A stretch of DNA of 64,000 bases from Candidatus Latescibacterota bacterium (GCA_022823725.1 JAJEHL010000022.1:15881-79880), one strand, 5' to 3'; numbered from the stretch's first letter, positions 3,343 to 62,708 are shown. Made by a program: numbers and translations. The notes: generated by a model not told the origin, from the sequence alone.

Positions 3343-4746
3343 ATGAGTGAAAGACCCAATATCCTATTTATCATGACCGATGATCATGCATCGCATGCTA
3401 TGAGTTGTTATAACAGTCGGATTAACGAAACGCCCAACCTGGACCGCATTGCCGAAGGCGGAATGCGCTTTAACAACTGCTTTTGCACCAACTCGATCTG
3501 CGCGCCGAGCCGGGCGGTAATCCTCACCGGAACTTACAACCACATCAACGGCGTAACCACACTGCGCACAAATTTAGACGGACGACAGGTCACATTTCCC
3601 AAACTGTTACAAGCAGCGGGATATCAAACCGCAATGGTAGGCAAATGGCATCTCGGGCACGGCGGACACAATGACCCCACCGGATTTGACTACTGGAACG
3701 TACTCCCCGGCCAGGGCGCGTATCACAACCCCATGATGTACGACATGGGCAAAGAAGTCCATTACGAGGGATACACCACAGACATCATAACCGACCTCGC
3801 ACTGGATTGGTTAAAAGACCGCGACAAAAACAGGCCATTCATGCTCATGTATCACCACAAAGCACCCCACCGTCCCTGGGAGCCAGACGACAAACACGCG
3901 GACATGTACGAAGACATCGACATCCCGGAACCCGAAACACTATGGGACGACTACAGCAACCGCGCCACAGCCGCATCTCAGGCTGAAATGCGCGTCAACC
4001 GCGACCTGAATCCCCGCGACCTGAAACAGCCCGTACCCGAAGGCTTGAGTCCCGAAGAAGACATGAAATGGAAATACCAGCGCTACATAAAAGACTACTT
4101 GCGCTGCGTGGCATCTGTCGATGACAACGTCGGCCGCGTACTGGATTACCTGGACGAAGAGAACCTGACCGACAACACCATCGTCGTCTATACATCGGAC
4201 CAGGGCTTTTACCTGGGCGACCACGGCTGGTACGACAAACGCTTCATGTACGAAGAATCTCTCCGCATGCCGTTCCTCATCCGGTACCCCAAAGAAATCA
4301 AAGCCGGCAGTGTCTGCGACGACATGATCCTCAACGTAGATTTCGCATCCACATTTTTGGACTACGCTGGTATAAACATCCCCAGCCATTTTCAGGGACA
4401 CAGCATGCGCCCCCTGTTAAACGGCGACCGACCCGCGTACTGGCGCGCCTCGATGTATTACCGCTACTGGATGCACCTGAACGGACACAATATCTACGCG
4501 CACTACGGAGTCAGAACGCATCGGCACAAACTCATCTACTACTACGCCGACGGATGTGGACAAGAAGGCGCCTCGGACGACGCCCGAGAACCAGAGTGGG
4601 AATTATTTGACCTGGACAAAGACCCGTATGAATTGAACAGCGTCTATCACAACCCGGAATACGCAGAAATAGTCGCCGAACTAAAAGACGAACTCCACCG
4701 TTTGCAGGATGAAGTGGGAGATGAGCGGTATGAAAAAGACATTTAA
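3343..4746 (+). CDS. Sulfatase (Cys-type)
   Basis: [16 protein letters not shown] signature, [23 protein letters not shown]. Confidence 0.95.
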
Positions 4747-4782
4747 ATAGTTGTCTATGAGTTTTATGGTAAAAAAAACCTT

Positions 4783-4841
4783 CTGGATCGCGGCTAAGCA
4801 TGTCCCCGCATGATTTAAGCGGGGAACCATGCCGCGATGAC
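4783..4841. repeat. REP-like hairpin family, copy A (with inner stem-loop insert)
   Basis: CTGGATCGCGGC...GCCGCGATGAC enclosing TCCCCGC/GCGGGGA. Confidence 0.85.
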
Positions 4842-4916
4842 AGAGGGTGTAGCATCAGGTCGCTTTTTGATGCCGATCTCATTCGCTTAGAAATGACTAC
4901 TTAAGAGGATTGTTTA

Positions 4917-6263
4917 ATGCCCAATGTCGTATTCATCATGACCGACAACCAGGGCGCCTGGACCCTGGGCTGCTATGGCAATCCAGACATACAAACCCCC
5001 AACATCGACAGACTCGCAGATGAAGGGGTCCGGTTTTCCAACGCCTACTGCGTAAACTCGGTCTGCTCGCCCAGCCGCGCCACATTCATGACCGGACTGA
5101 TCCCCTCCCAACACGGCGTACACTGTTACCTCGGCGGAGAAAGACCAGATGCACAAATGGGACCAGACGCGTACTGCACCATTCGCGAATTTGCAAACCT
5201 CCCCCGCGTAATGGCAGATGCGGGCCATGTATGCGGACTGAGCGGAAAATGGCATCTGGGAGACAGCATGCGGCCCCAGGAGGGATTCTCATACTGGTTT
5301 ACCCGCCCAAAGGGACACACCACCACATTTTACGACGATGAATGGATCTGGCGAGAACAGGTTTACACCGAACCGCGATACACAACCGAAGCCATAACAG
5401 AACACGCCCTGAAATTTCTGCGGCAAAACCACCACCAGCCGTTCTTTCTCTACGTAGCGTACAACGGACCCTACGGCCTGGGCCAGAGCATGCTGGAAAC
5501 ACATGTCAACCGGCACACCGAATACTACGCGGACAAAGAACTGCCGAGTTTTCCCAGAGAACCGGTACATCCGTGGCTACGCAGCAATCGGGACATGATC
5601 AACAACCCGGTGAGCATTCGAGGATATGCCGCAGCGGTGAGTGGGGTAGATGATGGGGTAGGCGAAATAACAAACGCCATAAAAGAATACGGCCTGGAAG
5701 AAGACACCCTGATAATATTCACAGCAGATCAGGGCTGGTGCGGTGGACATCACGGAATGTGGGGCATGGGAGACCACTCCCGGCCCCTTCATACTTATGA
5801 AGAAACCATCCACATTCCCCTGATATTCCGCCAGCCCGGGCGGATACCGGCAGACAGGGTCTTTGAAGGTAGAACATGCAACTACGACTTCTTCCCATCC
5901 GTACTGAACTACCTGGGATTACAGGATCGGATCGCCGACAACCCCAATCTCCCGGGCACGAGTTATGCCCCAGCACTTATGGGAAAAGAAATGGCGTGGC
6001 ATAATGAAATATACCACGAATTTGAAAACGCGCGCATGGTGCGAAATGACCGCTGGAAATACACCTGGCGTCACCCTGATGGCCCGGATGAACTATACGA
6101 TATGCAGGCAGACCCGGAAGAACGCAACAACCTGGCGAACCGCTCCCACACAAACGTCATCAACGAATGTCGCAACCGCATCCAGAACTTCTTTAACCAG
6201 TACGCAGACCCTCAGTACGACCTGTGGCGCGGGGGACGCTCCAAAGCGGGACGAATCGGATAA
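4917..6263 (+). CDS. Sulfatase (Cys-type)
   Basis: PNVVFIMTDNQ, CSPSR, GKWHLG, FTADQG. Confidence 0.95.
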   Translation: MPNVVFIMTDNQGAWTLGCYGNPDIQTPNIDRLADEGVRFSNAYCVNSVCSPSRATFMTGLIPSQHGVHCYLGGERPDAQMGPDAYCTIREFANLPRVMADAGHVCGLSGKWHLGDSMRPQEGFSYWFTRPKGHTTTFYDDEWIWREQVYTEPRYTTEAITEHALKFLRQNHHQPFFLYVAYNGPYGLGQSMLETHVNRHTEYYADKELPSFPREPVHPWLRSNRDMINNPVSIRGYAAAVSGVDDGVGEITNAIKEYGLEEDTLIIFTADQGWCGGHHGMWGMGDHSRPLHTYEETIHIPLIFRQPGRIPADRVFEGRTCNYDFFPSVLNYLGLQDRIADNPNLPGTSYAPALMGKEMAWHNEIYHEFENARMVRNDRWKYTWRHPDGPDELYDMQADPEERNNLANRSHTNVINECRNRIQNFFNQYADPQYDLWRGGRSKAGRIG

Positions 6264-15412: not shown

Positions 15413-16312
15413 CTATTTCTCTTTCGCACCAAAATGATCCATCTCGCCGCGATCAATCCAACCCGGCAATCTAATCTTCTCCGACATCTTCCACGCCGTC
15501 AAATAAAGCGAAACCGTAAAACGCGCGGCCTCTCTTGCATGCTTCTCCGCAAAAGCGCGCACCGCAGGCTCATTCTTCCAATCTACATCTTTTGGAACGA
15601 GATACTGCTCCATAGACAGCGCGGACTCAACCTCTCCGAAACTCCTGCGCATCTGTGCCACAACACCCGCCATCAAACTATCCACGGGCGCAGCCGTCAA
15701 GCCCTCGGCAATATCTTCGGGTCTCAAATCCAAATTTTGAAGCAACCCATCAATCTTCTCGTGAATGCGCGTCCTGGACGACTTGCCATCTACAACGCGG
15801 CCATTCCAGTGAATCGTCAGATTCAGAGGCTGACAAACTTCCTGAGCAAAATGCGCCACATACCCGGCGTATATCAAACACTTATTTTGAACAAACGGAC
15901 TATCGGGCCACTTGCGAAACTCCGCAAATGCCAGAGCGAGTTGCTCCGTATATTCCGCTGTCGCGTACGGCAACAACCCCACCTGCTCCGGCCTCTTCCC
16001 CAACTCTGCACACAGCCTGCCAAACTCGTACCGCGACGCGGGCAAATCCCCCGCCTCGAACAGCTCCATATTAAAATAATGAACCGGATGACCAGCCTTC
16101 TCCAGATGAAGCGTACCGCGATTCTTTGCAACATCCGGATCAACAGCCGCGTGAGCCACCATACCCCCGCCAGCCCTGAGAAAAGCAGGCGCATCTGCCG
16201 GAAGAGCTTGAACAGCCGCCCGCGTCAAAATGCCATGCCCTCGCGGCCACCAGCCCCATGCCGAAGATCCAAAAATACATAAAAGAAATAACACAACACT
16301 CAATCGACGCAT
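15413..16312 (-). CDS. Secreted S1/P1 nuclease / Zn-phospholipase C fold protein, paralogue A (altered Zn ligands)
   Basis: Signal peptide, mature WWPRGH (W1/H6), DPD, HYFN, HFAQEVCQPLN, HEKID. Start at 16312 behind AAGGAG. Confidence 0.8.
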   Translation of the reverse strand: MRRLSVVLFLLCIFGSSAWGWWPRGHGILTRAAVQALPADAPAFLRAGGGMVAHAAVDPDVAKNRGTLHLEKAGHPVHYFNMELFEAGDLPASRYEFGRLCAELGKRPEQVGLLPYATAEYTEQLALAFAEFRKWPDSPFVQNKCLIYAGYVAHFAQEVCQPLNLTIHWNGRVVDGKSSRTRIHEKIDGLLQNLDLRPEDIAEGLTAAPVDSLMAGVVAQMRRSFGEVESALSMEQYLVPKDVDWKNEPAVRAFAEKHAREAARFTVSLYLTAWKMSEKIRLPGWIDRGEMDHFGAKEK

Positions 16313-16329
16313 AGATAATCTCCTTGAAT

Positions 16330-16499: not shown

Positions 16500-17393
16500 C
16501 TACTCCCCGTCCCAAACCTCTCGCTTCACATAATCTGCAATCTCCAAACGCTCGGACAATCGCCAGGCAGTCAAATAAAGCTGTGCAGTAAATCGCGTCG
16601 CAGCCCGGGCGCGATCTTTTGCAAAAGCGATCACCTCGGCATTCGGTTCCCAATTCTCCTCGTCATATCTGGGAATATTCGGTCCCAATTCATAAACCCG
16701 ATCAACCAGTGCAAACCCCTCCTCAAACTCCCGCATAATCTCAGACATCACATTTTCAAAAGGCGTCACATCCTGATCCCGCGACAAAACCCCTGGCTCC
16801 ATCTTCAAAAACTGCACCAGACCATCCACCTTCTGATGAATACCCCTCTGCAACTTCTCGCCCCCCTCTTGCACGCGACCATCATAGTGAATCGTCAAAT
16901 GCAAAGGCTGGCACATATCCTCGGCATAGTGCGCGAGAAAACCCGCATAAATCAGACACTTACTCTGAATATGCGGATTATCGGGCCACTTGCGAAACTC
17001 TGCAAAAGCCACCGCCAAACGCTCTGTCCACTCATTCACCGCATAAGGCACAAAACCCATCTTCTCGGGCGAAACCCCATGCTCATAACACAACTTGACA
17101 AACGCGTATCGACTATCGGGCAACGTCTCCACAGCGAGCATCTCGCGATCCAAAAAATGCTCGGGATACTCTGCCCCTCGCACCTGCGGCGTCCCCCGAT
17201 TCTTGCCCATATCGGGATCAATACTCAAATGCGCCACCGTCTTTGCCCCCTGCCTGAAAAACGCAGGAACCTCATCGGGCAAAGCCGCCACAGCGGACAT
17301 AGTCAAAATATGATGCCCTTCCAGCAACCAGCCTCGAGCGGGGGAACACAACTCTGCGAGGAGTAAAACGGAAATAGCAAATCGTTTGATCAT
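16500..17393 (-). CDS. Secreted S1/P1 nuclease / Zn-phospholipase C fold protein, paralogue B (full ligand set)
   Basis: Signal peptide, WLLEGH, DPD, HFLD, HYAEDMCQPLH, HQKVD. Start at 17393 behind CAGGAGG. Confidence 0.85.
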   Translation of the reverse strand: MIKRFAISVLLLAELCSPARGWLLEGHHILTMSAVAALPDEVPAFFRQGAKTVAHLSIDPDMGKNRGTPQVRGAEYPEHFLDREMLAVETLPDSRYAFVKLCYEHGVSPEKMGFVPYAVNEWTERLAVAFAEFRKWPDNPHIQSKCLIYAGFLAHYAEDMCQPLHLTIHYDGRVQEGGEKLQRGIHQKVDGLVQFLKMEPGVLSRDQDVTPFENVMSEIMREFEEGFALVDRVYELGPNIPRYDEENWEPNAEVIAFAKDRARAATRFTAQLYLTAWRLSERLEIADYVKREVWDGE

Positions 17394-17565: not shown

Positions 17566-17600
17566 GCATAGACCGCTGACTGCTTATTCACACATAAAGA

Positions 17601-17631
17601 CAGCGGAGAAACTCAAAAAGTTTCTCCGCTA
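17601..17631 (-). terminator. Terminator hairpin downstream of tRNA-Sec
   Basis: AGCGGAGAAACT / AGTTTCTCCGCT 12-bp stem. Confidence 0.75.
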
Positions 17632-17638
17632 TCAAAAA

Positions 17639-17736
17639 TGGCGGGAATGTGTGGGAATCGAACCCACCAGGCGTGGGGTTAGCACGCGACAACGGGTTTG
17701 AAGCCCGCGGGGGACACCAGTTCCCCATCCACTCCC
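17639..17736 (-). tRNA. selC: tRNA-Sec (anticodon UCA)
   Basis: Minus strand GGGAGTGGATGGGGAACTGGTGTCCCCCGCGGGC-TTCAAA-CCCGT...GGTTCGATTCCC...ATTCCCGCCA: 98 nt, long variable arm, encoded CCA, directly after selD. Confidence 0.97.
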
Positions 17737-17738
17737 AA

Positions 17739-18782
17739 TCACGCTCGTACCTCAATCTCACCGGGATGTTCTGCAACCACCTCGCCAATATCTCGAGCCA
17801 TCACACCGCGATCGTCTAACGCCTCAAGAAAAGCATTAGCCGCATCGGACGCAAGAGCAATTAACAGACCACCAGAAGTCTGCGGATCAAAAAACAAACG
17901 CCTCAAAGCCTCGTCAACATCATCGGCAAACCTCACCGCATGCCCTCGCGCCTCCCGATTGCGCCGCAAACCACCGCCCTCGCGCCCCTCTGCAATCTGC
18001 AAAGCCAGATCAAAACACGGCACATTAGAAGCGCGAATCCGAAACCCAACGCCACTCGCCTGCGCCATCTCCAACCCATGCCCGATCAACCCAAACCCCG
18101 TAATATCCGTACACCCGTCCGCATTGAATGCAACCATCTCCTCGGCTGCAATGCGATTCAACTGCACCATAGAATCCACGGCAATCTGCAAAGCATCTTC
18201 ATCGATCTCGCCATTTTGATAGGCATCCGACAACAAACCCGTACCCAGCGGCTTGGTCAAAATGAGACGATTACCCACCCGAGCACCTGCATTGGTCTTC
18301 ACATCATCTGGATGCACAACCCCCGTAACAGACAAACCGTACTTGGGTTCCACATCCTCCACAGAATGCCCACCGACCAGAACCGCACCGGACTCCGTCA
18401 CCTTCTCCTGTGCCCCTTTTAAAACCTCGGCAATCACCTCTGGCTCGACATCATCACTCGGAAACCCGCAAATATTCAGCGCAGTAATCGGACGCCCCCC
18501 CATCGCATACACATCGCTCAGCGAATTTGCTGCCGCAATCTGCCCATACGCATGCGGATCATCGACAATAGGCGTAAAAAAATCCACCGTCTGAATAAGA
18601 GCCACATCCTCAGAAATCCGAAACACGCCAGCATCATCAGCCGTATTCATCCCCACCATCAAATCGGGATGCGCCACACGCGGCAAATTTTTCAAAATCA
18701 CATCCAGCACCGCTGGATCGAGTTTCGATGCTCAACCACCGCAACTGACGAGCTGAGTCAATCTTTTAGCGCGATACTTCAT
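17739..18782 (-). CDS. selD: Selenide, water dikinase (selenophosphate synthetase), Sec-containing
   Basis: True start ATG 18782: MKYRAKRLTQLVSCGG-U(TGA 18734-18732)-ASKLDP, then DDAGV, TVDFFTP, GGHS, DITGFGL, DPQTSGGLL. Confidence 0.95.
18702..18718 (-). promoter_or_regulatory. Bacterial SECIS hairpin of selD
   Basis: ATCCAGC-GGT-GCTGGAT starting 13 nt after the UGA. Confidence 0.8.
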
Positions 18783-19609
18783 TTTTTTATTTCCTCATCT
18801 TCTCTCGCCATCTGTTCCTTTTGCCAGCGATAATCGACCTTGCCATCGTAAAACATCCCGGGGTTCTCTATCGCCCACAACTGCTTTCGAATCAACCAAT
18901 TCTTGGGATCCAGAACATAAGCGCGCTTTAATTCTGCAATCGCGTCTTCGCGCTTGCCCTGTTTTAGCAACGCGATAGCGCGCTGAAATATTGCATCGGC
19001 CTCCCGCTCATCCGCAGTCAGCGCGCGGGGTTTCGCACCCTCATCCGCATCGCGCCAGACACTGGGAACAACTCCCGATGTTATCCACTCAACCAGTTCT
19101 CCGCGCAGGGTCTCATTATCAATACTCACGCTACCAACACTGCGGACAAGTCGTCCTTCTTCATCCACAAAAATCCCAACCGGCACAAATTTCACATTAT
19201 ACGCCTTACCAATCGCATTGTGCTGATCCAGCAATGCGCGATATGTACCACCGGCTTTTTCAACCCAGGGTCTGGCAACCTCGGCACCCTGGGCATCCTG
19301 AGCAATGACCACCACCTCAACCTGCTCACCGTACTCCTGATAAAACGCTTGCCATCCAGGCAACTGAGCGCGGCACCCTCACCAGGACGCCCACATAAAA
19401 AACGCCGTCTTCTTCCCGCGAAAATCACTCGAAGAAATCATCTCCCCAGAATACAAATCCGGCAGTGTAAACGCAGGCGGCACCTGCCCAATGCTCAAAC
19501 CAATGTCATTCAGTTCAGACTCCAAAGTCTTCACAAATTCCTCCCCGGACAGGATATGAATAGGGATGAGTACACTCACCAGGATCAATACAAATGATAT
19601 TTTTTTCAT
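18779..19609 (-). CDS. Exported TlpA/AhpC-type redoxin selenoprotein (W-U-G-C) with C-terminal TPR, 276 aa
   Basis: Track ORFs 19379..19609 and 18779..19363 are in frame, separated only by TGA 19381-19379 plus 5 codons. Reads signal peptide, GQVPPAFTLPD, FFMWASW-U-GCRAQLP, YNVKFVP, TPR. Its stop overlaps the selD ATG (ATGA). Confidence 0.88.
19349..19363 (-). promoter_or_regulatory. Bacterial SECIS hairpin of the redoxin gene
   Basis: TTGCC-TGGAT-GGCAA starting 15 nt after the UGA. Confidence 0.7.
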
Positions 19610-19740
19610 CTCGTATCCAATCTAACAGAATTTGAACAAGACACAAGCCCGGTTGCATCTTTTATCCGAACCTGTGAACACCAAGCCGCTCGGCAATCAT
19701 CTCACCGAGCGGCTTGGCATGCAACGGACATCGCGTTTCA

Positions 19741-20700
19741 CTAACCGTACAGATGCGCCACATAATCGCCATACCCATTGTACATTTGGGTAGGCACGCG
19801 CTCCATCGTCCCGATCAACCGCTCCGTTGCTTGAGACCAGCGCGGGTGTGGCACATTGGGATTTACATTTGCCCAAAAATCGTACTCAGCAGGTGCCAGC
19901 TTGTTCCAGAAGGTAGGCGGTCTCTGTTTGGTAAACTCGATCTTCACAATGGACTTAATACTCTTAAATCCGTATTTCCACGGCGTAATCAACCGAATGG
20001 GCGCCCCGTGCTGCTTGGGCATCGCATGACCGTAAATACCCGTCGCGAGCATCGTCAGTTCATTCGTCGCCTCTTCCATTGTCAAGCCTTCAAAATAAGG
20101 CCACGGATACCAGGACTGCGTCTTGATACCCGGCGCCTGATCCGGACGATTGAACGTCACCATACGCACGTATTTTGCCGACGACTGGGGCTGCACATAA
20201 TCGATCAACGCCTTCATCGGAAACCCCGTCCACGGCACCGTCATCGCCCATGCTTCCACACACCGAAACCGATACACGCGCTCTTCCAGCGCGAACCGCT
20301 TGAGCAAATCATCCAGATCATACGTTCCGGGTTTCTCCACAAAGCCAGAAATCTCCACCTCCCAGGGACGCACCTCAAACTTATCCGTCAACTCGTGAAC
20401 TTTGCCCTTATTCGTGGTAAACTCGTAAAAATTATTGTATCGCGCGGCAATCTTCTCCCGGGTCAATTCCCGCTCCACCGTATAAATTTCATTGCGCTTT
20501 GCCGGATACAAACCCGGCAGTGATGGGGGGACTTCCACCTCAAACTCATCTTCTGCTGTCGCGCAACCCGCACCAATCACCGCGCTCGCGCCTGCGACAC
20601 CTATCGCTTGCATAAAGCACCGACGATTCACATAAATGTCTTCGGGCGTAACCTCGCCTTCGGGCAACTGCCAGCCTTTGGGAATATGGATAAAAGCCAT
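19741..20700 (-). CDS. msrP: Protein-methionine-sulfoxide reductase catalytic subunit MsrP (YedY), Tat-exported molybdoenzyme
   Basis: NRRCFM Tat motif, YNNFYEF, RCVEAW Mo-Cys, PWKYGFKSIKSI, HPRWSQA. Confidence 0.95.
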   Translation of the reverse strand: MAFIHIPKGWQLPEGEVTPEDIYVNRRCFMQAIGVAGASAVIGAGCATAEDEFEVEVPPSLPGLYPAKRNEIYTVERELTREKIAARYNNFYEFTTNKGKVHELTDKFEVRPWEVEISGFVEKPGTYDLDDLLKRFALEERVYRFRCVEAWAMTVPWTGFPMKALIDYVQPQSSAKYVRMVTFNRPDQAPGIKTQSWYPWPYFEGLTMEEATNELTMLATGIYGHAMPKQHGAPIRLITPWKYGFKSIKSIVKIEFTKQRPPTFWNKLAPAEYDFWANVNPNVPHPRWSQATERLIGTMERVPTQMYNGYGDYVAHLYG

Positions 20701-31996: not shown

Positions 31997-33391
31997 TCAA
32001 GTACTCCTATCGCCTTCCCGATACCGATCCAAAATCCCCAGCAATTCTTCCACCACCTCTGACTTTTCACAGAACAAATTATTCTGCTCCTCCGGATCAG
32101 AAGCCATATCGTAAAGCTGCATTGGCGGTGCATCTTCTGGCACATCTGCCTCTCTCAAACTCCAGCCCCCTGAACCGCGACACGCCACCAGCTTCCACTC
32201 ATCTTTGCGAATCGCAAACTCCCCGCTAATCGAATGATGCACCGTCGCCTCCCGAATCGTCGTCTCCTGATCCCCCTGCATATACGGCAAAATATCATAA
32301 CTATCCTCCCCCGCATCCCTCGGCAAATCCACATCGCAAATCCCCGCTACAGTCGCCAGCAAATCCGTCAAACACACCGTCTTATCACAACGCGACCCCG
32401 GTTCAATCGCCCCGGGCCACGAAGCGATAAACGGAATGCGATGCCCACCATCCCACGCATCGGACTTCTGCCCCCGATAAATATAATTCCCCAGATGATC
32501 GTACTTCTCCTTCAACCCTATCGGCTCTTCGTGACAGCCATTATCGCTCGTCACAACAATCAGCGTATCATCCGCCAACCCATTGCGTTTAACCGCCGCC
32601 AAAATGCGCCCAACACTCCAATCGTGTTCCGTCACATAATCCCCGTATTCCCCTGCCTGGCTCCGCCCTGCAAAACGCCCCCGTGCAAAATGCGGCGTAT
32701 GCGGCGAAGGCGCGGGAAAATACAAAAAGAACGGCTTATCCCCATTCTCCTTCGCGTGCTGATTGATAAACCCCTCGGCGCGAATCGTCAGCTCCAGCAA
32801 ACACGTATCATGCATAAACCCGGGCGCACACGCACCCCCGCGCCAAAATTCTGGCCTCGGCGAATCCGCAGTCTCCTCAAGCGGTTGCTCCACCACCACC
32901 CCATCTTCAATATAACAATATGGCGCCATATCCAGCGACGCCGGAATAATAAACGAATAATCAAACCCCACCGTATGGGGACCATCTGACAACGGCGCAG
33001 AAAAATCCACCGACTCCCCATTCGCCCTCTCCGCCCCATCCCCAACCTGCCAGCCCAAGCCCAAATGCCACTTGCCCACACACGCCGTCGTATAACCCTC
33101 ATCGCGCAACAGCGACGGCACAGTCATCCGCCCCTCTTCAATCAACGGCTCAGAATACCCATTCAAAACCCCGCGCTTCAACCGCGACCGCCAGCAATAG
33201 CGCCCCGTCATCACCCCGTACCGCGTGGGCGTACACACCGCAGAATTACTATGTGCATCCGTAAAAATCATCCCCTCAGACGCGAGTTGATCCGTATGCG
33301 GCGTAGGAATCTTCGAATCGGGATTCAAACAACTCACATCTCCGTATCCCCAGTCATCGGCCAACAGGTAAATAATATTTGGCTTGCGCAT
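31997..33391 (-). CDS. Arylsulfatase (Cys-type)
   Basis: PNIIYLLADDWGYGD, CTPTR, GKWHLG, SDNG, GGHRIP. Start moved to 33391. Confidence 0.95.
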   Translation of the reverse strand: MRKPNIIYLLADDWGYGDVSCLNPDSKIPTPHTDQLASEGMIFTDAHSNSAVCTPTRYGVMTGRYCWRSRLKRGVLNGYSEPLIEEGRMTVPSLLRDEGYTTACVGKWHLGLGWQVGDGAERANGESVDFSAPLSDGPHTVGFDYSFIIPASLDMAPYCYIEDGVVVEQPLEETADSPRPEFWRGGACAPGFMHDTCLLELTIRAEGFINQHAKENGDKPFFLYFPAPSPHTPHFARGRFAGRSQAGEYGDYVTEHDWSVGRILAAVKRNGLADDTLIVVTSDNGCHEEPIGLKEKYDHLGNYIYRGQKSDAWDGGHRIPFIASWPGAIEPGSRCDKTVCLTDLLATVAGICDVDLPRDAGEDSYDILPYMQGDQETTIREATVHHSISGEFAIRKDEWKLVACRGSGGWSLREADVPEDAPPMQLYDMASDPEEQNNLFCEKSEVVEELLGILDRYREGDRST

Positions 33392-33473
33392 AAGACAAAC
33401 TCCCTTCATTATGTCTATTCAAAAGCTACAAAAATCATGATCATCGACCACTATAATACACCCATCCAATACT

Positions 33474-34547: not shown

Positions 34548-35993
34548 ATGTCCGACAAACCAAACATCCTCTGGATCTGCACCGACCAGCAACGCTTTGA
34601 CACCCTCGGCTGTTATGGCAACCCCTTTGTCCACACCCCCAACCTGGATCGCCTCGCCGAACAAAGCGTCCTCTTTGAATACGCCTTCTCTCAAAGCCCC
34701 GTCTGCACGCCCAGCCGGTCCAGCTTCCTCACAGGACGCTACCCGCGCACCACGCGCTGCCGACAAAACGGCCAATCCATACCCGGCGACGAAATCCCCG
34801 TCACCAAACTGCTTCACGACGCCGGATACGTATGTGGCCTATCCGGCAAACTCCACATCTCGGTCTGCAACCCCAGCGCGTGTCACGGCACAGAACGCCG
34901 CATAGACGACGGCTATGACCAATTCTTCTGGTCGCACGACCCGGCCCCCAGATGGCCCACCAATGACTATCACCAGTGGTTGCGCGACAAGGGCCTGACG
35001 CGCGATGTCCAGCCCTTCTCCGACTCCCGATACGTACAGACACTCCCCTCAGAAGAACACAGCCAGACCACCTATTGCATCCAGCGCGCCATCACCTTCA
35101 TCCGCCGATGCGCTGAAGAAAACATGCCCTGGACCTTCTCCCTCAATCCCTTTGACCCGCATCACGCCTTTGATCCCCCGCGCGAAGACCTCGAACGCTA
35201 CCGCGATATAATCGACGACATACCTTTGCCCAACTACGTTGAAGGCGAACTCCATGACAAACCCCTCTGGCAACGCATCGATCACGGCGGCTCCTACGGC
35301 GGCAAAGGCATGTATGCGTACGACCAAATGACCGATACCGATCACCGCTGGGTCACCGCGGCGTACTGGGCCATGGTCGATGTCATCGACCGCCAGATCG
35401 GCCACCTGCTCGACTGCCTTGAAGAAACCGGACAGCGCGACAACACCTATATCATCTTCACCTCTGACCACGGCGAAATGCTCGGCGACCACGGCATCTA
35501 CCTCAAAGGCCCCTTCTTCTACGAACCCGCTGTGCGCGTCCCCCTCCTCATCTCAGGACCCAACCTTCGCAACGACGGCTCGCGGTCATCTGCACTCGTC
35601 GAACTCGTTGACCTCGCGCCCACCATCCTCGAATGGGTCGGCCTCGACCGCCAGCCTGCCATGCAGGGCCGCACCCTCCAACCCCTCCTGAAAGGCGACA
35701 CGCCCCTCGATCAGCACCGCGACGACATCTACTGCGAATACTACAACGCCATGCCAGGTCATAAAAATCCGCCAGCTCATGCCACCATGGTACGCACCGA
35801 CCGCTACAAACTCGTCGCTGCACACGGCACGGGCAGCGGCGAACTCTACGACCTCGAAACCGACCCCAATGAAACGCACAACCAGTGGAACAACCCCAAC
35901 TATACCGCCGTAAGACTCGACCTCATGACCCGCCTTGCCGACCGCATGGCCTGGACCGTTGATCCCCTGCCCCCGAGAGAAGCAGGGTTTTAA
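34548..35993 (+). CDS. Sulfatase (Cys-type)
   Basis: PNILWICTDQQR, CTPSR, GKLH, SDHGEMLGDHG. Confidence 0.95.
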   Translation: MSDKPNILWICTDQQRFDTLGCYGNPFVHTPNLDRLAEQSVLFEYAFSQSPVCTPSRSSFLTGRYPRTTRCRQNGQSIPGDEIPVTKLLHDAGYVCGLSGKLHISVCNPSACHGTERRIDDGYDQFFWSHDPAPRWPTNDYHQWLRDKGLTRDVQPFSDSRYVQTLPSEEHSQTTYCIQRAITFIRRCAEENMPWTFSLNPFDPHHAFDPPREDLERYRDIIDDIPLPNYVEGELHDKPLWQRIDHGGSYGGKGMYAYDQMTDTDHRWVTAAYWAMVDVIDRQIGHLLDCLEETGQRDNTYIIFTSDHGEMLGDHGIYLKGPFFYEPAVRVPLLISGPNLRNDGSRSSALVELVDLAPTILEWVGLDRQPAMQGRTLQPLLKGDTPLDQHRDDIYCEYYNAMPGHKNPPAHATMVRTDRYKLVAAHGTGSGELYDLETDPNETHNQWNNPNYTAVRLDLMTRLADRMAWTVDPLPPREAGF

Positions 35994-41136: not shown

Positions 41137-42264
41137 ATGAGCAAAGCGCGTCAAATCTACGAAGACCTGGGCGTTGTCCCTGTAATCAACGCATCGGGAT
41201 ATCAGACCGTCATTGGCGGGTCGCGAGTAGGCACAGAAGTGCAAGCCGCAATGGACATAGCGAATCGCTACTTTGCGGACATGGAAGCACTACTCAAAAA
41301 AACCGGCGCAATCATCGCCGACACCCTCAGCGCAGAAGCGGCAATGGTCACACCTGGATGCGCGGCAGCATTAGCCCTCAGCTCAGCCGCCTGCATGTCG
41401 GGCAGCGACCCCGAGAAAATGGAACAATTGCCCGACACAACGGGCATGAAACATCACATTTTAATACAAAAAAAACAGCGCTATCACTACGACCCGGTAC
41501 TCACTGTCTTCGGCGCCAAACTCATCGAAGTAGGCGATGAAAACGGAACAACCGAAGCCCAACTCGAAGCCGCCATATCAGACCAGACCGCAGCCATCCA
41601 CTATTTCGCACCCGGAGGCCAGGCAGGCGTCCTATCCCCCGAAGACGTCGTCCGCATCGCCCACGCCAACGGGATACCCGTCATCGTCGATGCAGCGAGC
41701 CAGGTCTATCCCCTCGAAACCATGCTAAAATATCCCGACATGGGCGCAGATCTAATCGGCTACGGCGCAAAATACATTGGCTCGTGTCACTCCACAGGCA
41801 TCTTGTGTGGACGCAAAGACCTCATCGACGCCGCCTTTCTCCACTCCTTCATCGGTTATGAAACCTGCCCTTACGACACCATAGGCCGCCCGCTAAAAGT
41901 AGATCGGCAAGAAGTCATCGCCGTCGTCGTTGCCCTGCGCGAATGGTTCAGCATGGACCACGAAACGCGCCTATCCGAATACAAACGCAAAGCCGAAGCA
42001 CTACTATCAGACCTGAAAGACATCCCCCACATCGCAGCCAAATTCTCGGCCGACTCACGAGGCCTGAGCGATGGCGTACACATCACAGTCGATGAAACCG
42101 CACTGGGCAAAACCGCAGCGCAAATAATCGAAGAACTTCGACAGGGCAATCCATCCGTATGGACACGCGGCAGCGCAAACACCTTCCGCGTCGCCGTAAC
42201 CAACTTCATCGAAGACGACCAGGAAATCGTCACCGCACGCCTGCGCGAAATACTGACCGGATAA
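41137..42264 (+). CDS. SelA-like / DgaE family PLP-dependent enzyme (probably not true SelA)
   Basis: VINASG..T.IGGS, VDAAS, YGAKYIG (PLP Lys), GRPLKV.RQE; 375 aa, with no N-terminal tRNA-binding extension. Confidence 0.8.
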   Translation: MSKARQIYEDLGVVPVINASGYQTVIGGSRVGTEVQAAMDIANRYFADMEALLKKTGAIIADTLSAEAAMVTPGCAAALALSSAACMSGSDPEKMEQLPDTTGMKHHILIQKKQRYHYDPVLTVFGAKLIEVGDENGTTEAQLEAAISDQTAAIHYFAPGGQAGVLSPEDVVRIAHANGIPVIVDAASQVYPLETMLKYPDMGADLIGYGAKYIGSCHSTGILCGRKDLIDAAFLHSFIGYETCPYDTIGRPLKVDRQEVIAVVVALREWFSMDHETRLSEYKRKAEALLSDLKDIPHIAAKFSADSRGLSDGVHITVDETALGKTAAQIIEELRQGNPSVWTRGSANTFRVAVTNFIEDDQEIVTARLREILTG

Positions 42265-56329: not shown

Positions 56330-57463
56330 ATGAAACCTGTCGTCGCGCACAGTGCCAACCCCTATTTACCAGCAACAGCCACCTGGATATACGACCAGAT
56401 TCGCGCATTAAAACGGTACCGCCCCATCGTCCTCACACAAATGCGCCAGAACCTGGATCGTTTTCCCACAGAAACCGTCTTATCAGCTGAAGATATATCG
56501 CCCATCCGCAGAACAACCCTGCGCCTCATTCGCAAAATGCGCGGCACGTACGCCGGCTATAAAAACTGGCTTTGCGAACACAACGCCGCCCTCATCCACG
56601 CGCATTTTGGGCAGGAGGGATACCGGTGCCTCTCCGCAAAACAACGAGCGGGCATCCCCTTGATCACCACCTTCTACGGCCTGGACGTATCGGCACTACC
56701 CCGGCAAAAAAAATGGCAAAAACGGTATAAACGCCTCTTTGCCGAAGGCGACTACTTCCTCGTCGAAGGCCCCTTCATGGGCGAACAACTCATCGCACTT
56801 GGATGCCCTGCCAACCGGGTAATCGTACAACACCTAAGCGTAGATCTCGAAAAAATCCCCTGCAGAACAGACCACACACCCGAACAACCCATCGTATTGA
56901 CATATAGCGTATTCCGAGAAAAAAAAGGCTTGAAATACGCAATCCGGGCTTATGCAAAAATAGCGGAAAAATATCCGGACGCCCAACTGCGCATGATAGG
57001 CGACGGACCTTTGCGCCCACAACTACAAGCTGAAATACGAAATCTACACCTCGAAAACCGCGTAAAAATGCTCGGCCTGCTCCCCCATCCTCTCGCACTG
57101 GAAGAACTAAAACGCGCAACAATCCTCCTCTATCCCAGCGTCACAGCATCAGATGGCGACACCGAAGGCGGTGCCCCCGTAGCCCTCATCGAAGCCATGG
57201 CAATGGGCGTCCCCATTGTATCGTCCCGACACGCCGACATCCCCGAAGTCGTAATCGACAAAACCTGCGGCCTATTATATCCCGAACGAGACATCGCGGG
57301 CCTCGCCGAAGGATTGGACACCCTCCTCAACTCCCCCGAACAATTTGGTCGCGCTGGCCGCGCTCACGTCGAAAAGCAGCACAACCTGGAAAAACAGGGT
57401 AAAAAATTAGAGGTGATTTACGATCGGGTTGTGATGAACAAGCCCCCAATGCATAATCCTTGA
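56330..57463 (+). CDS. Glycosyltransferase family 4 (WcaL-like)
   Basis: HAHFG, TTFYGLD, EKKGL, DGDTEGGAPVALIEAMA. Start moved to 56330. Confidence 0.9.
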   Translation: MKPVVAHSANPYLPATATWIYDQIRALKRYRPIVLTQMRQNLDRFPTETVLSAEDISPIRRTTLRLIRKMRGTYAGYKNWLCEHNAALIHAHFGQEGYRCLSAKQRAGIPLITTFYGLDVSALPRQKKWQKRYKRLFAEGDYFLVEGPFMGEQLIALGCPANRVIVQHLSVDLEKIPCRTDHTPEQPIVLTYSVFREKKGLKYAIRAYAKIAEKYPDAQLRMIGDGPLRPQLQAEIRNLHLENRVKMLGLLPHPLALEELKRATILLYPSVTASDGDTEGGAPVALIEAMAMGVPIVSSRHADIPEVVIDKTCGLLYPERDIAGLAEGLDTLLNSPEQFGRAGRAHVEKQHNLEKQGKKLEVIYDRVVMNKPPMHNP

Positions 57464-57528
57464 CATCCGCGACTATTAACACAATTTATTCAGTGCTCAT
57501 TCCTCGCGTACTTAAAATGGAGACAGAA

Positions 57529-58908
57529 ATGCCTGAACACCCCAACCTCGTATTTGTATTCCCCGACGAATATCGCAAACAAGCCATGGGATTCATGAAC
57601 GAAGACCCCGTAATAACCCCTAACATCGACCGATTTGCATCTGAAAGCCTGGTATTAACCGACGCCGTAAGCACCAGACCTGTATGCAGCCCCTATCGGG
57701 CAATGCTCTTCACCGGACAATATCCCCACGCCAATGGCGTACTCAGCAACGTCAACTCCACCACAGTACAATACGAAAACTACCTCCGGGAAAACGCACG
57801 GTGCTTCTCTGACGTCTTACACGACGCTGGCTACAACCAGGCGTATCTGGGCAAACTACACCTCGATCCCCCTAATGAACAATATCAATACACCGAAGGA
57901 CCGAGAGGAAATGGCGTCATCTGGGACTCATATACCCCGCCGGGACCGCGCAGACACGGCTATGACTTCTGGTATTCCTACGGCTGTTGCGACTGGCACT
58001 TCGACCCCCATTACTGGACTGGCAATGACCCCATAGACAAACGCATCGACCCGAAGGAATGGTCTCCCAAACACGAAACCGACATCGCAATAAACTACAT
58101 CCGCAACGAAGGTGGAAAATACAGAGATCCCAAAAAACCATTCTCACTCGTCATATCCCACAACCCGCCGCACATGCCATTCAAACAAGTACCGGAAAAA
58201 TACGTCGCCCAATACGGCGATGCCACCCATGAAGACCTCTTGACGCGCCCCAACGTACCCACAGACACAAGCGGCGACAGCGCCCGCGAAAATGTAAAAC
58301 ACTACTTCGCCATGGTAACCGGCGTCAATGAAAACTTCGGACGCATACTGGACTGTCTGAAAACAGAGGGCATGGAAGAAAACACCATCGTCGTCTTCAC
58401 CTCTGACCACGGCGAAATGATGGGCAGCCATGGCCGCATCGGCAAAACCGTACACTACGAAGAATCCTTCACCGTGCCATTCATCATCCGCTGGCCCGGA
58501 AAAATCACACCCGGCACAGATGACCTGTTAATCGGCACACCCGACTTGATGCCCACACTGCTCAACCTCATGGGCGTGGGACAGGTCCCCGACAGCGTCC
58601 AGGGAATGGATTACTCCGATATCCTCCTGGGTAAAAAAGGCACGCGCCCAGCATCTGCACTCTACCTCAACGTAATGCCCGACAACCCCGCTGGCGGATC
58701 GCGTGGCGTGCGCACACACCGACACACGTATGTGGTCACGCAAACAGGCGAAGACGAAGAAACAATCCTCCACGACAACATCGCGGACCCCTACCAGCTA
58801 CAAAACATCGCTGGCGATCATCCCGGCCTTGAAGCAGAACTTGAGGAAGAAATGAACAACTGGTTGAAAAAAACCGGCGACCCATGGTTGACGCGAATAG
58901 ACGAATAG
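57529..58908 (+). CDS. Sulfatase (Cys-type)
   Basis: PNLVFVFPDEYR, CSPYR, GKLHLD, SDHGEMMGSHG. Confidence 0.95.
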   Translation: MPEHPNLVFVFPDEYRKQAMGFMNEDPVITPNIDRFASESLVLTDAVSTRPVCSPYRAMLFTGQYPHANGVLSNVNSTTVQYENYLRENARCFSDVLHDAGYNQAYLGKLHLDPPNEQYQYTEGPRGNGVIWDSYTPPGPRRHGYDFWYSYGCCDWHFDPHYWTGNDPIDKRIDPKEWSPKHETDIAINYIRNEGGKYRDPKKPFSLVISHNPPHMPFKQVPEKYVAQYGDATHEDLLTRPNVPTDTSGDSARENVKHYFAMVTGVNENFGRILDCLKTEGMEENTIVVFTSDHGEMMGSHGRIGKTVHYEESFTVPFIIRWPGKITPGTDDLLIGTPDLMPTLLNLMGVGQVPDSVQGMDYSDILLGKKGTRPASALYLNVMPDNPAGGSRGVRTHRHTYVVTQTGEDEETILHDNIADPYQLQNIAGDHPGLEAELEEEMNNWLKKTGDPWLTRIDE

Positions 58909-58998
58909 ACGACCCCCGCCCCACCACCCAAAACCTCTGGATTGCGGCTAAAACCCTGCCGCAATGACGGCTTTCAGGTACATTACCTGTTTCATTGA
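58895..58998. repeat. REP-like family, long copy H
   Basis: Matches B, D and G; followed by the AACTGG...CCAGTTGTACACCG module (59009-59040). Confidence 0.9.
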
Positions 58999-59061
58999 TT
59001 CGTAGATGAACTGGTCTGAGAAGCGACCAGTTGTACACCGTTCCGCTGAAAGGAGCAATAA

Positions 59062-62579: not shown

Positions 62580-62708
62580 ATCATTTATTCCTTAAAAAAA
62601 GGGGCTGGGGACTGGTTGAGTTGATCGCTGGAAATCAGCCATCAGCTAACCGCTTGTTTTCAAAGATAGAATATCACAATAGCCGTGTCAAATAGGAAGG
62701 AGTTCAAA

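What the first reader, a model, noticed from the sequence alone, without database searches (positions are those of the whole stretch)
17639..20700. Selenium redox cluster: msrP > exported Sec-redoxin-TPR > selD(Sec) > tRNA-Sec
Two track ORFs join through an in-frame UGA into a 276-aa protein: signal peptide, thioredoxin/TlpA fold with an unusual W-U-G-C (UxC rather than UxxC) centre, and C-terminal TPR. Its stop overlaps the selD start (ATGA), and selC follows 2 nt after the selD stop. An apparently exported selenoprotein is therefore translationally coupled to its own Se-donor and tRNA genes, and sits directly behind a periplasmic methionine-sulfoxide reductase. I know of no description of this arrangement. 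It could be a selenium-based envelope protein-repair system.
Basis: partly seen in the sequence, partly recalled or inferred. Interest (0 to 1): 0.88.

Follow-up and report, generated by a model that had tools for sequence, protein, structure and literature searches.

The report
Exported UGC selenoprotein beside selD-selC
This is a real selenocysteine-containing, apparently exported thioredoxin-like protein whose gene is fused to the genes that make selenocysteine. The protein family is already catalogued, and its neighbour msrP looks like a recent, incidental neighbour rather than a partner.

Summary

The UGA is genuine. It is TGA in 36/36 related genome loci and 72/73 assessable metagenome loci. 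Protein conservation runs across it, a conserved bSECIS-like hairpin follows it, and distant homologues carry Cys there (CGC, CSC, CHC).

The claim of novelty fails. "Prx-like (UGC-containing)" selenoproteins were listed in 2008, and NCBIfam NF041054 ("WAxxUGC") models a sister subfamily.

The msrP link is shallow. It occurs only in relatives at least 88% identical, is usually separated by a strong conserved hairpin, is sometimes interrupted by inserted genes, and is absent from 80 metagenome loci.

The deeper conserved context is the Sec-machinery cluster: selA-selB-[redoxin]-(selD)-selC.

My best reading is an envelope selenol/thiol oxidoreductase carried as a client gene inside the Sec-trait cluster, as FdhA is elsewhere. 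Its substrate is unknown. This is a new member of a known kind, of moderate interest.

The parts
18779..19609 (-). CDS of a 276-aa selenoprotein with three parts: an N-terminal signal/anchor, a TlpA/ResA-like thioredoxin-fold domain with a W-A-S-W-U-G-C centre, and a C-terminal TPR-like helical domain
   Evidence: Translation is. Pfam AhpC-TSA, Redoxin and TPR_2 are. NF041054 'WAxxUGC_long' scores 147.6 bits, below the 300 cutoff. The best PDB sequence matches are 2l5o, 2yp6 (Etrx1) and ResA, and the alignment shows WASWCG-C against WASWCGPC.
19379..19381 (-). In-frame UGA read as selenocysteine (residue 77)
   Evidence: It is TGA in 36/36 genome loci and 72/73 assessable metagenome loci. It aligns with Cys in P0144, P0262, P0218, P0182 and P0208.
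19348..19364 (-). bSECIS-like hairpin: a 5-bp stem in the window (6 bp in most relatives), a 5-nt loop UGGAU with an invariant GG, and 20 nt between the UGA and the loop
   Evidence: RNAalifold finds it unaided. 98.1% of cells are paired, two pairs carry compensatory changes, and 0/500 shuffles reach the observed score. It meets the criteria quoted in PMC13188914.
17739..18782 (-). selD, selenide water dikinase (347 aa), itself a selenoprotein; its ATG overlaps the redoxin stop (ATGA)
   Evidence: TIGR00476 373.6 bits and NF002098 346.6 bits. The overlap is read and is conserved in L001-L013.
18732..18734 (-). In-frame UGA of selD (the Cys17 position, CGG-U-ASK)
   Evidence: Seen. A stop at this position occurs in all 25 related loci that carry selD.
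18702..18718 (-). selD bSECIS-like hairpin (7-bp stem, GGU loop)
17639..17736 (-). selC, tRNA-Sec (anticodon UCA), 2 nt after the selD stop
   Evidence: ARAGORN and Rfam RF01852 at 68.5 bits. The same position is found in L001-L013.
17599..17633 (-). Terminator-like 16-bp hairpin directly after tRNA-Sec; the likely end of the redoxin-selD-selC transcript
19678..19720 (-). Very stable 17-19 bp hairpin in the 131-nt msrP-redoxin spacer. It lacks a U-tract and may act as a terminator or processing site
   Evidence: The 140-nt spacer region has an MFE of -57.7 kcal/mol and z = -5.6. It is conserved with G-C/A-U changes in L001-3, 5, 7, 8, 10 and 13, and absent in L011 and L012.
19741..20700 (-). 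msrP (periplasmic molybdopterin methionine-sulfoxide reductase with a Tat-type RRCF signal); a neighbour, probably not part of the unit
   Evidence: NF003767 430.9 bits. Adjacency occurs only in L001-L013 and in 0/80 metagenome loci.
16500..17393 (-). Exported protein of unknown function ('hyp314'), first of two paralogues (the second is at 15413..16315). It is the conserved gene after tRNA-Sec in the related clade
   Evidence: No Pfam family passes; there are only weak S1-P1 nuclease (E 0.037) and Zn-PLC (E 0.12) matches. It is found downstream of selC in 23 of 36 genome loci.

Best explanation
The gene encodes a genuine selenoprotein. It is a TlpA/ResA-type thioredoxin-fold oxidoreductase, sent to or anchored on the outer face of the cytoplasmic membrane by an N-terminal hydrophobic signal.

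Its redox centre is a selenocysteine-Gly-cysteine triad (U-x-C) instead of C-x-x-C. Sec occupies the position of the nucleophilic first cysteine. The Cys two residues on would resolve the intermediate as a strained selenenylsulfide, and an unidentified membrane reductant would then recycle the protein.

Such a centre would be expected to be a fast nucleophile with a relatively oxidising, isomerase-like or mixed-disulfide-reducing character. The C-terminal TPR-like helical domain probably holds the substrate or a partner protein.

The gene sits inside the selenocysteine-machinery cluster because it is, together with SelD, a client of that machinery in this Latescibacterota lineage. The ancestral order is selA-selB-redoxin-(selD)-selC. 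In the window's clade, redoxin, selD and tRNA-Sec form one tight unit, with an ATGA overlap, a 2-nt gap and a terminator only after the tRNA. This co-produces the selenium donor enzyme and the tRNA with the protein that consumes them. msrP is a recent neighbour with no demonstrated functional link.

Shown:
- The selenoprotein status.
- The fold family.
- The U-x-C centre.
- The synteny pattern.

Inferred:
- Export.
- The catalytic cycle.
- Co-transcription.
- The client-cassette rationale.
For: - UGA conservation: the UGA is conserved with coding conservation on both sides in 36/36 and 72/73 loci.
- Gene calls: all 120 listed close homologues in the protein database are C-terminal fragments that start just after the UGA. 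Most 50%-cluster representatives do the same.
- Cys homologues: CGC, CSC, CHC and CIC forms align with U-G-C.
- SECIS: the hairpin meets the published bSECIS constraints and carries compensatory synonymous changes.
- Fold: AhpC-TSA and Redoxin match, and the best solved relatives are extracytoplasmic ResA, Etrx1 and TlpA. There is a one-residue deletion in the CGPC motif.
- Export signal: the N-terminal hydrophobic segment (KD 2.2-3.3) with preceding K/R is present in every Latescibacterota form examined.
- Sec-machinery genes: selA (588 bits) and selB (371 bits) lie directly upstream in 10 distant genome loci. tRNA-Sec lies downstream in 24/36 genome loci. selD lies between in 17. Sec-machinery genes share the contig in 16 metagenome loci.
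- Transcript end: the terminator-like hairpin comes only after selC.
- Precedent: Sec-decoding genes and FdhA are often in one operon, especially in organisms with a single selenoprotein (PMC1794560).
- CxC chemistry: reported potentials are -130 to -200 mV, against more reducing CxxC proteins (PMC3173608).
Against: - No experiment has been done, and the substrate and reductant are unknown.
- No ccdA/dsbD-type reductant gene is adjacent.
- Export rests on hydropathy only, because no SignalP was available. Several distant family members lack any signal, including P0262, a true NF041054 member.
- Some distant relatives have lost both redox residues (SGS, DVS, SDS, SES), so the scaffold may have a non-redox role.
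- The client-cassette idea assumes a small selenoproteome, which I could not check on whole genomes.
- The covariation in the SECIS stem is limited to two pairs and a few events, and the stem lies in codons for an invariant peptide.
- Both structure predictions were poor, so the geometry of the centre is inferred from sequence alignment.
Confidence: 0.6

Rival explanations
1. The redoxin is an accessory factor of selenium metabolism itself. For example, it could reduce or capture selenite, selenotrisulfide or selenopersulfide species at the envelope and feed selenium towards SelD. On this reading it sits between selB and selD/selC for a functional reason.
For: It is embedded in the Sec-machinery cluster across relatives 55-95% identical. 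It is translationally overlapped with selD in the window clade. One more distant locus (L086, 51% identity) also has selD 1.5 kb upstream.
Against: Apart from L086, none of the more distant loci (about 52% identity or less) carries a sel gene or tRNA-Sec, whether from genomes or metagenomes; about twenty of them have 4 kb or more of flank. Their neighbours are variable. Cys and redox-dead relatives exist without any sel context. A selenium-trafficking factor that itself needs Sec would be circular. The known pattern of a client selenoprotein next to sel genes explains the synteny more simply.
Confidence: 0.12
2. One reading: msrP, the Sec-redoxin, selD and selC form one selenium-based envelope protein-repair system, with the redoxin working with or for MsrP on oxidised methionine.
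For: msrP is on the same strand 131 nt upstream in the window and in most of L001-L013. In L011 and L012 the spacer is only about 25-70 nt and lacks the hairpin. No msrQ is adjacent. There is a precedent for extracytoplasmic Trx-fold proteins feeding a surface methionine-sulfoxide reductase: S. pneumoniae Etrx1/2 with MsrAB2 (PMC3914529). Etrx1 (2yp6) is among the best solved relatives.
Against: The adjacency is restricted to relatives at least 88% identical. It is 0/23 in more distant genome loci and 0/80 in metagenome loci. Unrelated genes are inserted between the two in L004, L006 and L009. A very stable conserved hairpin separates them in the window. MsrP is a molybdopterin enzyme reduced by the haem protein MsrQ, not by thiols or selenols (established knowledge). 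No MsrA/MsrB-type thiol-dependent reductase is present in the cluster.
Confidence: 0.07
3. It is an extracytoplasmic selenoperoxidase of the Prx type. Sec acts as the peroxidatic residue and the neighbouring Cys as the resolving residue, detoxifying peroxides at the envelope rather than reducing protein disulfides.
For: The best Pfam match is AhpC/TSA (56.8 bits). The family was first labelled 'Prx-like (UGC-containing)' (PMC2398784). Sec sits at the position of the peroxidatic Cys. Selenols react quickly with peroxides (established knowledge).
Against: The local motif WASW-[C/U] and the best NCBIfam and PDB matches are TlpA/ResA/StoA/Etrx types rather than peroxiredoxins. The Prx signature PxxxT/SxxC is not present, because Ser is at -2 (read). 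The TPR-like domain suggests a protein partner.
Confidence: 0.15
4. It is not a selenoprotein. The locus holds two separate short ORFs or a pseudogene interrupted by a nonsense mutation.
For: Automatic gene callers annotate only the C-terminal fragment. A few relatives look damaged: L034/L084 read MWASR*GC with a deletion, and L086 reads MWAS**GC.
Against: The same TGA occurs in more than 100 independent loci spanning 36-95% identity, always in frame. The N-terminal part is conserved, a conserved SECIS-like hairpin follows, Cys occupies the same column in distant homologues, and the full Sec machinery is present next door.
Confidence: 0.02

Closest known systems
[quoted passage not shown]
   Same: Both have a thioredoxin/AhpC-TSA fold (pfam00578 / cd02966), a U-G-C redox motif with Sec first, many Cys homologues, and a function known only by inference.
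   Different: The literature entries I could read give only a table line. They do not mention the TPR-like C-terminal domain, the signal peptide, or any position inside the sel gene cluster. I could not compare directly with the example accession MDE0950781.1.
NCBIfam NF041054 'ResA-like WAxxUGC motif-containing protein' (WAxxUGC_long)
   Same: The WAxx[U/C]GC centre and the Trx domain are shared, and the profile's positions 84-205 align. The long Latescibacterota relatives also share the N-terminal domain with a CxxxxC pair.
   Different: The window protein scores 147.6 bits and its long relatives 117-169 bits, against a cutoff of 300. A true member (P0262, 514.6 bits) has no signal peptide, an insertion after the Trx domain, and a divergent C-terminal motif (NWxYKRQAWN). 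This is a sister subfamily, not the same equivalog.
TlpA / ResA / CcmG(DsbE) / StoA / Etrx extracytoplasmic thiol-disulfide oxidoreductases
   Same: They share the fold, the N-terminal membrane anchor or signal, the WASWC context, and the best solved-structure matches.
   Different: Those proteins use C-x-x-C with two cysteines. This one is one residue shorter and uses Sec. It carries an extra C-terminal helical domain. All the curated models are missed by wide margins (ResA 59.6 against 170, TlpA 32.7 against 230).
Sec-trait gene clusters that carry their client selenoprotein (selA-selB-selC with fdhA; PMC1794560)
   Same: A selenoprotein gene is physically joined to the genes for Sec synthesis and insertion. 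This favours co-inheritance and co-expression.
   Different: The client here is an exported U-x-C redoxin, not formate dehydrogenase. It lies inside the cluster between selB and selD/selC, and in the window clade it overlaps selD translationally.
Natural C-x-C thioredoxin-fold proteins (B. subtilis YphP/BrxA; the engineered thioredoxin CGC variant)
   Same: The redox pair is spaced by one residue in a Trx fold. Measured potentials are more oxidising than thioredoxin (-130 to -200 mV; PMC3173608). The bacilliredoxin role in reducing mixed disulfides is from my own knowledge and was not checked here.
   Different: Those are cytoplasmic, all-cysteine proteins from a different Trx-fold family. No sequence relationship was tested.

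Membership tests
UGC-containing Prx/TlpA-like selenoprotein family (GOS 2008 / cd02966) | Thioredoxin-fold (AhpC-TSA/Redoxin) domain | tested here: met
   PF00578 56.8 bits (cutoff 26) and PF08534 50.7 bits (cutoff 26.6).
UGC-containing Prx/TlpA-like selenoprotein family (GOS 2008 / cd02966) | In-frame UGA giving a U-G-C motif at the redox centre | tested here: met
   WASW-U-GC in the window. TGA in 36/36 and 72/73 related loci.
UGC-containing Prx/TlpA-like selenoprotein family (GOS 2008 / cd02966) | Cys-containing homologues with Cys in the Sec column | tested here: met
   P0144 and P0262 carry CGC, P0218 CSC, P0182 CHC and P0208 CIC, all aligned in A5.
UGC-containing Prx/TlpA-like selenoprotein family (GOS 2008 / cd02966) | Bacterial SECIS downstream of the UGA: loop 3-9 nt, stem at least 4 bp, G in the first two loop positions, 16-37 nt from the UGA, MFE <= -7.5 | tested here: met
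   Loop UGGAU, 5-6 bp stem, 20 nt spacing. The 60 nt after the UGA fold at -15.6 kcal/mol. The core hairpin alone is only -6.4 in the window and -9.0 in relatives.
UGC-containing Prx/TlpA-like selenoprotein family (GOS 2008 / cd02966) | Actual selenium incorporation | not testable with these tools
   This needs 75Se labelling or mass spectrometry.
NCBIfam NF041054 WAxxUGC_long (equivalog) | WAxxUGC motif | tested here: met
   W-A-S-W-U-G-C.
NCBIfam NF041054 WAxxUGC_long (equivalog) | Whole-protein score at or above the curated cutoff (300 bits) | tested here: not met
   147.6 bits covering only profile positions 84-205 of 354. Long relatives score 117-169 bits. The control P0262 scores 514.6 bits.
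NCBIfam NF041054 WAxxUGC_long (equivalog) | N-terminal domain (profile positions about 1-83, with a CxxxxC pair) | tested here: not met
   It is absent from the window protein, where the signal peptide leads directly into the Trx domain. It is present in L015-L036 as long forms, with a weak PF07833 match of 24.0 bits.
TlpA/ResA/DsbE C-x-x-C thiol-disulfide oxidoreductases | C-x-x-C active site | tested here: not met
   The centre is U-G-C, one residue shorter. The alignment to 2yp6 shows WASWCG-C against WASWCGPC.
TlpA/ResA/DsbE C-x-x-C thiol-disulfide oxidoreductases | Curated model cutoffs | tested here: not met
   ResA 59.6 against 170, StoA 49.7 against 210, TlpA 32.7 against 230, DsbE 20.3 against 123.
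TlpA/ResA/DsbE C-x-x-C thiol-disulfide oxidoreductases | Extracytoplasmic location through an N-terminal signal or anchor | tested here: inconclusive
   There is a hydrophobic 12-mer with KD 3.23 after KK, conserved in the clade. No signal-peptide predictor and no experiment were available.
SelD (selenide, water dikinase), Sec form | Model score and Sec/Cys at the Cys17 position | tested here: met
   TIGR00476 373.6 bits (cutoff 125). A UGA in CGG-U-ASK is conserved in 25/25 loci.
tRNA-Sec (selC) | Covariance-model score and UCA anticodon | tested here: met
   RF01852 68.5 bits (gathering score 47). ARAGORN reports anticodon tca.
MsrPQ periplasmic methionine-sulfoxide repair system | MsrP catalytic subunit | tested here: met
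   NF003767 430.9 bits (cutoff 207).
MsrPQ periplasmic methionine-sulfoxide repair system | Adjacent msrQ haem-membrane partner | tested here: not met
   The genes flanking msrP are citrate synthase (PF00285, 410.7 bits) and the redoxin. The rest of the genome was not searched.
Etrx-MsrAB2-type extracytoplasmic thiol-driven Met-SO repair (S. pneumoniae) | A thiol-dependent MsrA/MsrB partner and a CcdA reductant encoded with the redoxin | tested here: not met
   The ORFs I annotated between 13.7 and 23.7 kb include no MsrA/MsrB or CcdA. No such conserved neighbour was seen in 116 related loci.

The most novel reading that the evidence does not exclude
The U-x-C redoxin is not merely a client of the Sec machinery. 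It would be a dedicated envelope component of selenium handling, capturing or reducing selenium species for SelD. That would explain why it is kept between selB and selD/selC and is translationally overlapped with selD in this Latescibacterota clade.
Probability: 0.12. Interest if true: 0.75.

Novelty: new member of a known kind. Interest (0 to 1): 0.35.

Why it matters
The U-x-C TlpA-like selenoproteins are common in metagenomes: 1176 cluster representatives reach E < 1e-3. They have no assigned function, and gene callers routinely truncate them at the UGA. All 120 close database entries are fragments.

This locus gives a clean, well-supported example in a closed genomic context. It shows that in one Latescibacterota lineage the gene travels inside the Sec-machinery cluster. 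That makes it a good candidate for the selenoprotein that maintains the Sec trait there, playing the role FdhA plays elsewhere.

It also offers a compact three-gene unit (redoxin, selD, selC) that could be tested for expression and selenium incorporation. The suggested selenium-based MsrP repair system would have been more striking, but the comparative data do not support it.

Tried and rejected
- **Structure prediction:** the full protein could not be submitted because of the internal UGA and the exact-sequence rule. The post-UGA fragment with a 16-sequence alignment gave mean pLDDT 66. A Cys homologue (P0182) without an alignment gave pLDDT 44.5. Both were too poor for fold search, so none was run.
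- **Literature:** a search for 'WAxxUGC' found nothing. The two Haft papers most likely to discuss this family (PMC12013261, PMC9879109) are not held.
- **hyp314:** phmmer and profile searches against PDB sequences found nothing meaningful. Pfam gave only sub-threshold S1-P1 nuclease and Zn-PLC hints.
- **Neighbours in distant loci:** looking for a conserved neighbour in the 48 related loci that lack sel genes turned up only variable neighbours such as sulfatases, TIM-barrel enzymes and oxidoreductases.
- **selA/selB in the window:** neither is present. There is only a 23%-identical SelA-like PLP enzyme at 41137..42264.
- **Promoters:** the sigma-70 scan gave nothing on the minus strand and no more than chance overall.
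- **tRNA-Pro call:** I rejected the ARAGORN tRNA-Pro at 19017..19108 as a real gene. It lies inside the conserved CDS, is 92 nt long, and has no Rfam match.
- **Loop positions of the SECIS:** I rejected the idea that the U/A to C/G changes in the loop are a base pair, because the geometry is impossible. They are synonymous GC-content shifts.


Full report
**1. The observation**

All features lie on the minus strand and are as described.

- **msrP** spans 19741..20700 (319 aa). It scores 430.9 bits against NCBIfam MsrP (cutoff 207).
- **The redoxin** begins 131 nt downstream. An ORF of 76 aa ends at a TGA (19379..19381) and continues in frame for 199 more codons to a TGA at 18779..18781. Reading through gives 276 aa: MKKISFVLILVSVLIPIHILSGEE..., then FFMWASW-U-GCRAQLPGWQ..., then a C-terminal helical part.
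  - Pfam finds AhpC-TSA and Redoxin across residues 40-156.
  - It also finds one TPR_2 match at residues 204-237, just under threshold.
- **The stop/start overlap** is ATGA, shared between the redoxin stop and the selD start, with a GAGGA 9 nt upstream.
- **selD** (17739..18782) scores 373.6 bits against TIGR00476. It has its own in-frame TGA at the Cys17 position.
- **tRNA-Sec** (17639..17736) starts 2 nt after the selD stop. Both ARAGORN and Rfam support it (68.5 bits, gathering score 47).
- **A 16-bp terminator-like hairpin** follows the tRNA directly.

**2. Is the UGA a real Sec codon?**

Five lines of evidence say yes.

- All 120 listed close homologues in the protein database are 153-195 aa fragments that begin just after the UGA, so gene callers stop there.
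- I fetched 36 genome loci, mostly Latescibacterota MAGs with a few binned as Gemmatimonadetes or Planctomycetota. All 36 have TGA at that codon. The upstream part is in frame and conserved, and the motif [MIV]WAS[WR]-U-GCRxQLPGW[QK] is nearly invariant.
- In 80 metagenome loci reaching down to 36% identity, 72 of 73 assessable sites have TGA. The centre is U-x-C, where x is mostly G but also R, A, E, T or V.
- A library-wide search found full-length relatives with Cys in the same column: CGC in P0144 and P0262, CSC in P0218, CHC in P0182, and CIC in P0208. It also found forms that have lost the redox residues (SGS, DVS, SDS, SES).
- Downstream of the UGA, RNAalifold finds a 6-bp hairpin unaided. 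It has a 5-nt loop with an invariant GG, and 20 nt separate the UGA from the loop.
  - 98% of cells are paired, and two pairs carry compensatory changes.
  - One of these is C-G to U-A, made by synonymous Leu and Gln codon changes.
  - No shuffle in 500 reaches the observed score.
  - This fits the published bSECIS constraints (PMC13188914; energies).

The covariation is modest and the stem lies in codons for an invariant peptide. The hairpin is therefore supporting rather than independent proof.

selD carries its UGA in all 25 related loci that contain it.

**3. What kind of protein is it?**

- The best solved relatives by sequence are extracytoplasmic Trx-fold proteins: 2l5o, S. pneumoniae Etrx1 (2yp6), ResA, StoA and TlpA.
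- The alignment shows WASWCG-C against WASWCGPC. Sec therefore sits at the nucleophilic first-Cys position, and the motif is one residue shorter than C-x-x-C.
- The N-terminus has K/R residues followed by a strongly hydrophobic 12-mer (KD 3.2), as do all the Latescibacterota relatives examined. Several distant relatives, such as P0182, P0187 and P0262, have none. Export or anchoring is thus a reasonable inference for this clade but not a family-wide trait.
- The C-terminal region is one TPR-like hairpin plus a very conserved motif, DPxNWxIRKQxWAxExPxxFYxxxxDxxWQxEQ, which marks the wider family.
- Most relatives below about 75% identity are 'long' forms. They carry an extra N-terminal domain with a CxxxxC pair and a borderline Cu_amine_oxidN1 match. 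The window protein is a short form.

**4. Is it known?**

- NCBIfam holds NF041054, 'ResA-like WAxxUGC motif-containing protein'.
  - The window protein hits it at 147.6 bits and its long relatives at 117-169 bits, all below the 300-bit cutoff.
  - A Cys-form protein, P0262, scores 514.6 bits.
  - The Latescibacterota proteins are therefore a sister subfamily of that model.
- The GOS selenoproteome paper lists 'Prx-like (UGC-containing)', pfam00578, motif UGC, with 46 Sec sequences and 855 Cys homologues (PMC2398784).
- The same review lists other predicted periplasmic-type selenoproteins (DsbG-like, thiol:disulfide interchange). An exported Sec redoxin is therefore not unprecedented as a prediction.
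No function is assigned to it.

**5. The neighbourhood**

*msrP.* The link is shallow.
- It is present upstream only in L001-L013, which are at least 88% identical and share the same citrate synthase upstream.
- In L004, L006 and L009, 1.1-1.7 kb of unrelated small genes lie between msrP and the redoxin.
- In the window and eight relatives, the spacer holds a very stable conserved hairpin. The 140-nt region has z = -5.6.
- msrP is absent from the 23 more distant genome loci and from all 80 metagenome loci.

*The Sec machinery.* This link is deeper.
- tRNA-Sec follows the redoxin, directly or after selD, in 24 of 36 genome loci.
- selD lies between them in 17 loci.
- In 10 distant loci, selA (588 bits) and selB (371 bits) lie immediately upstream. 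The order is selA-selB-redoxin-(selD)-selC, followed by one or two copies of an exported protein of unknown function ('hyp314') and an inositol-monophosphatase-family gene.
- Sixteen metagenome contigs show pieces of the same order.
- The window itself has no selA or selB within its 64 kb. In its clade, citrate synthase and msrP occupy the place of selA-selB.
- Relatives below about 52% identity show no sel linkage, with the single exception of L086, and no common neighbour.

**6. Interpretation**

The simplest account is that this is an envelope selenol/thiol oxidoreductase that, with SelD, is a client of the Sec machinery in this lineage. It is therefore carried inside the Sec-trait cluster.

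The same pattern is documented for FdhA with selA-selB-selC, especially in organisms with a single selenoprotein (PMC1794560). In the window clade the arrangement has tightened into a redoxin-selD-selC unit, with an ATGA overlap, a 2-nt gap, and a terminator only after the tRNA.

Mechanistically, Sec would attack the substrate, whether a disulfide, a mixed disulfide, a sulfenate or a peroxide. The Cys two residues on would resolve the intermediate as a selenenylsulfide. C-x-C centres measured elsewhere are more oxidising than thioredoxin, at -130 to -200 mV (PMC3173608). This suggests an isomerase-like or mixed-disulfide-directed activity rather than a strong general reductase. These steps are inferred.

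MsrP needs haem-derived electrons from MsrQ and has no known use for a thiol or selenol donor (established knowledge). Together with the shallow synteny, this makes the proposed Se-based MsrP repair system unlikely.

A dedicated role in selenium handling is not excluded. The lack of sel linkage in more distant relatives, and the existence of Cys and redox-dead forms, argue against it.

**7. Limits**

- No experiment has been done.
- Export rests on hydropathy alone.
- Both structure predictions failed to reach usable confidence.
- Whole genomes could not be scanned for other selenoproteins.
- The papers most likely to discuss NF041054 were not available.

**Verdict**

The selenoprotein and its coupling to selD and selC are real and neatly organised. 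However, the protein belongs to an already catalogued family, and its clustering with sel genes follows a known pattern. The msrP part of the story is not supported.

Noticed in passing
window 16500..17393 (-) and 15413..16315 (-): Two paralogous exported proteins of about 300 aa match no Pfam, NCBIfam or PDB-sequence family. They have an invariant W-x-x-x-G-H right after the signal peptide, conserved His, Asp and three Cys residues (HYAxDxCQPLH), and only sub-threshold S1/P1-nuclease and Zn-phospholipase-C hints. One or two copies follow tRNA-Sec in 23 of 36 related genome loci, so this is the most conserved non-sel neighbour of the cluster.
   Followed up: partly
window 19678..19720 (-): A very stable 17-19 bp hairpin without a U-tract lies in the msrP-redoxin spacer. 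It is conserved, with G-C/A-U changes, in eight close relatives but missing in L011 and L012. It could be a terminator, a processing site or a repeat element.
   Followed up: partly
window 19017..19108 (-): ARAGORN calls a 92-nt tRNA-Pro (cgg) inside the conserved redoxin coding sequence. Rfam finds nothing there, so it is almost certainly a false positive.
   Followed up: partly
window 19741..20700 (-): msrP has a long N-region and a Tat-type RRCF motif but no adjacent msrQ. Its neighbours are citrate synthase and the redoxin. Whether msrQ exists elsewhere in the genome is unknown.
   Followed up: no
window 41137..42264 (+): A 375-aa PLP enzyme gives weak SelA (PF03841, 24.3 bits) and aminotransferase class-V matches and is 23% identical to true SelA of relatives. 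It is probably a SelA-related lyase or aminotransferase rather than the missing selA.
   Followed up: partly
P0187, P0227, P0268, P0190, P0201 (distant homologues): These family members keep the WASW...R.xLP.W helix and the C-terminal NWxIRKQxW motif but have replaced the U/C-x-C centre with SGS, DVS, SDS, SES or DSC. The scaffold evidently persists without redox chemistry.
   Followed up: no
L015-L036, e.g. L017:5428-6591: Most relatives below about 75% identity are long forms of about 350-390 aa. They carry an extra N-terminal domain (a borderline Cu_amine_oxidN1 match) with a conserved C(R/K)(D/E)DLC pair, possibly a second redox site. The window clade has lost this domain.
   Followed up: partly
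L034 / L083 / L084 and L086: Some relatives look damaged. L034 and L084 read MWASR-U-GC and have an internal deletion in the C-terminal domain. L086 has two consecutive stops (MWAS**GC). These could be pseudogenes or assembly errors.
   Followed up: no
window 3343..6263, 31997..33409, 34548..35993, 57460..60372, 62685..64000: At least seven ORFs begin with sulfatase-like N-termini (for example [10 protein letters not shown] and PNVVFIMTDNQ). I judged this by eye only.
   Followed up: no
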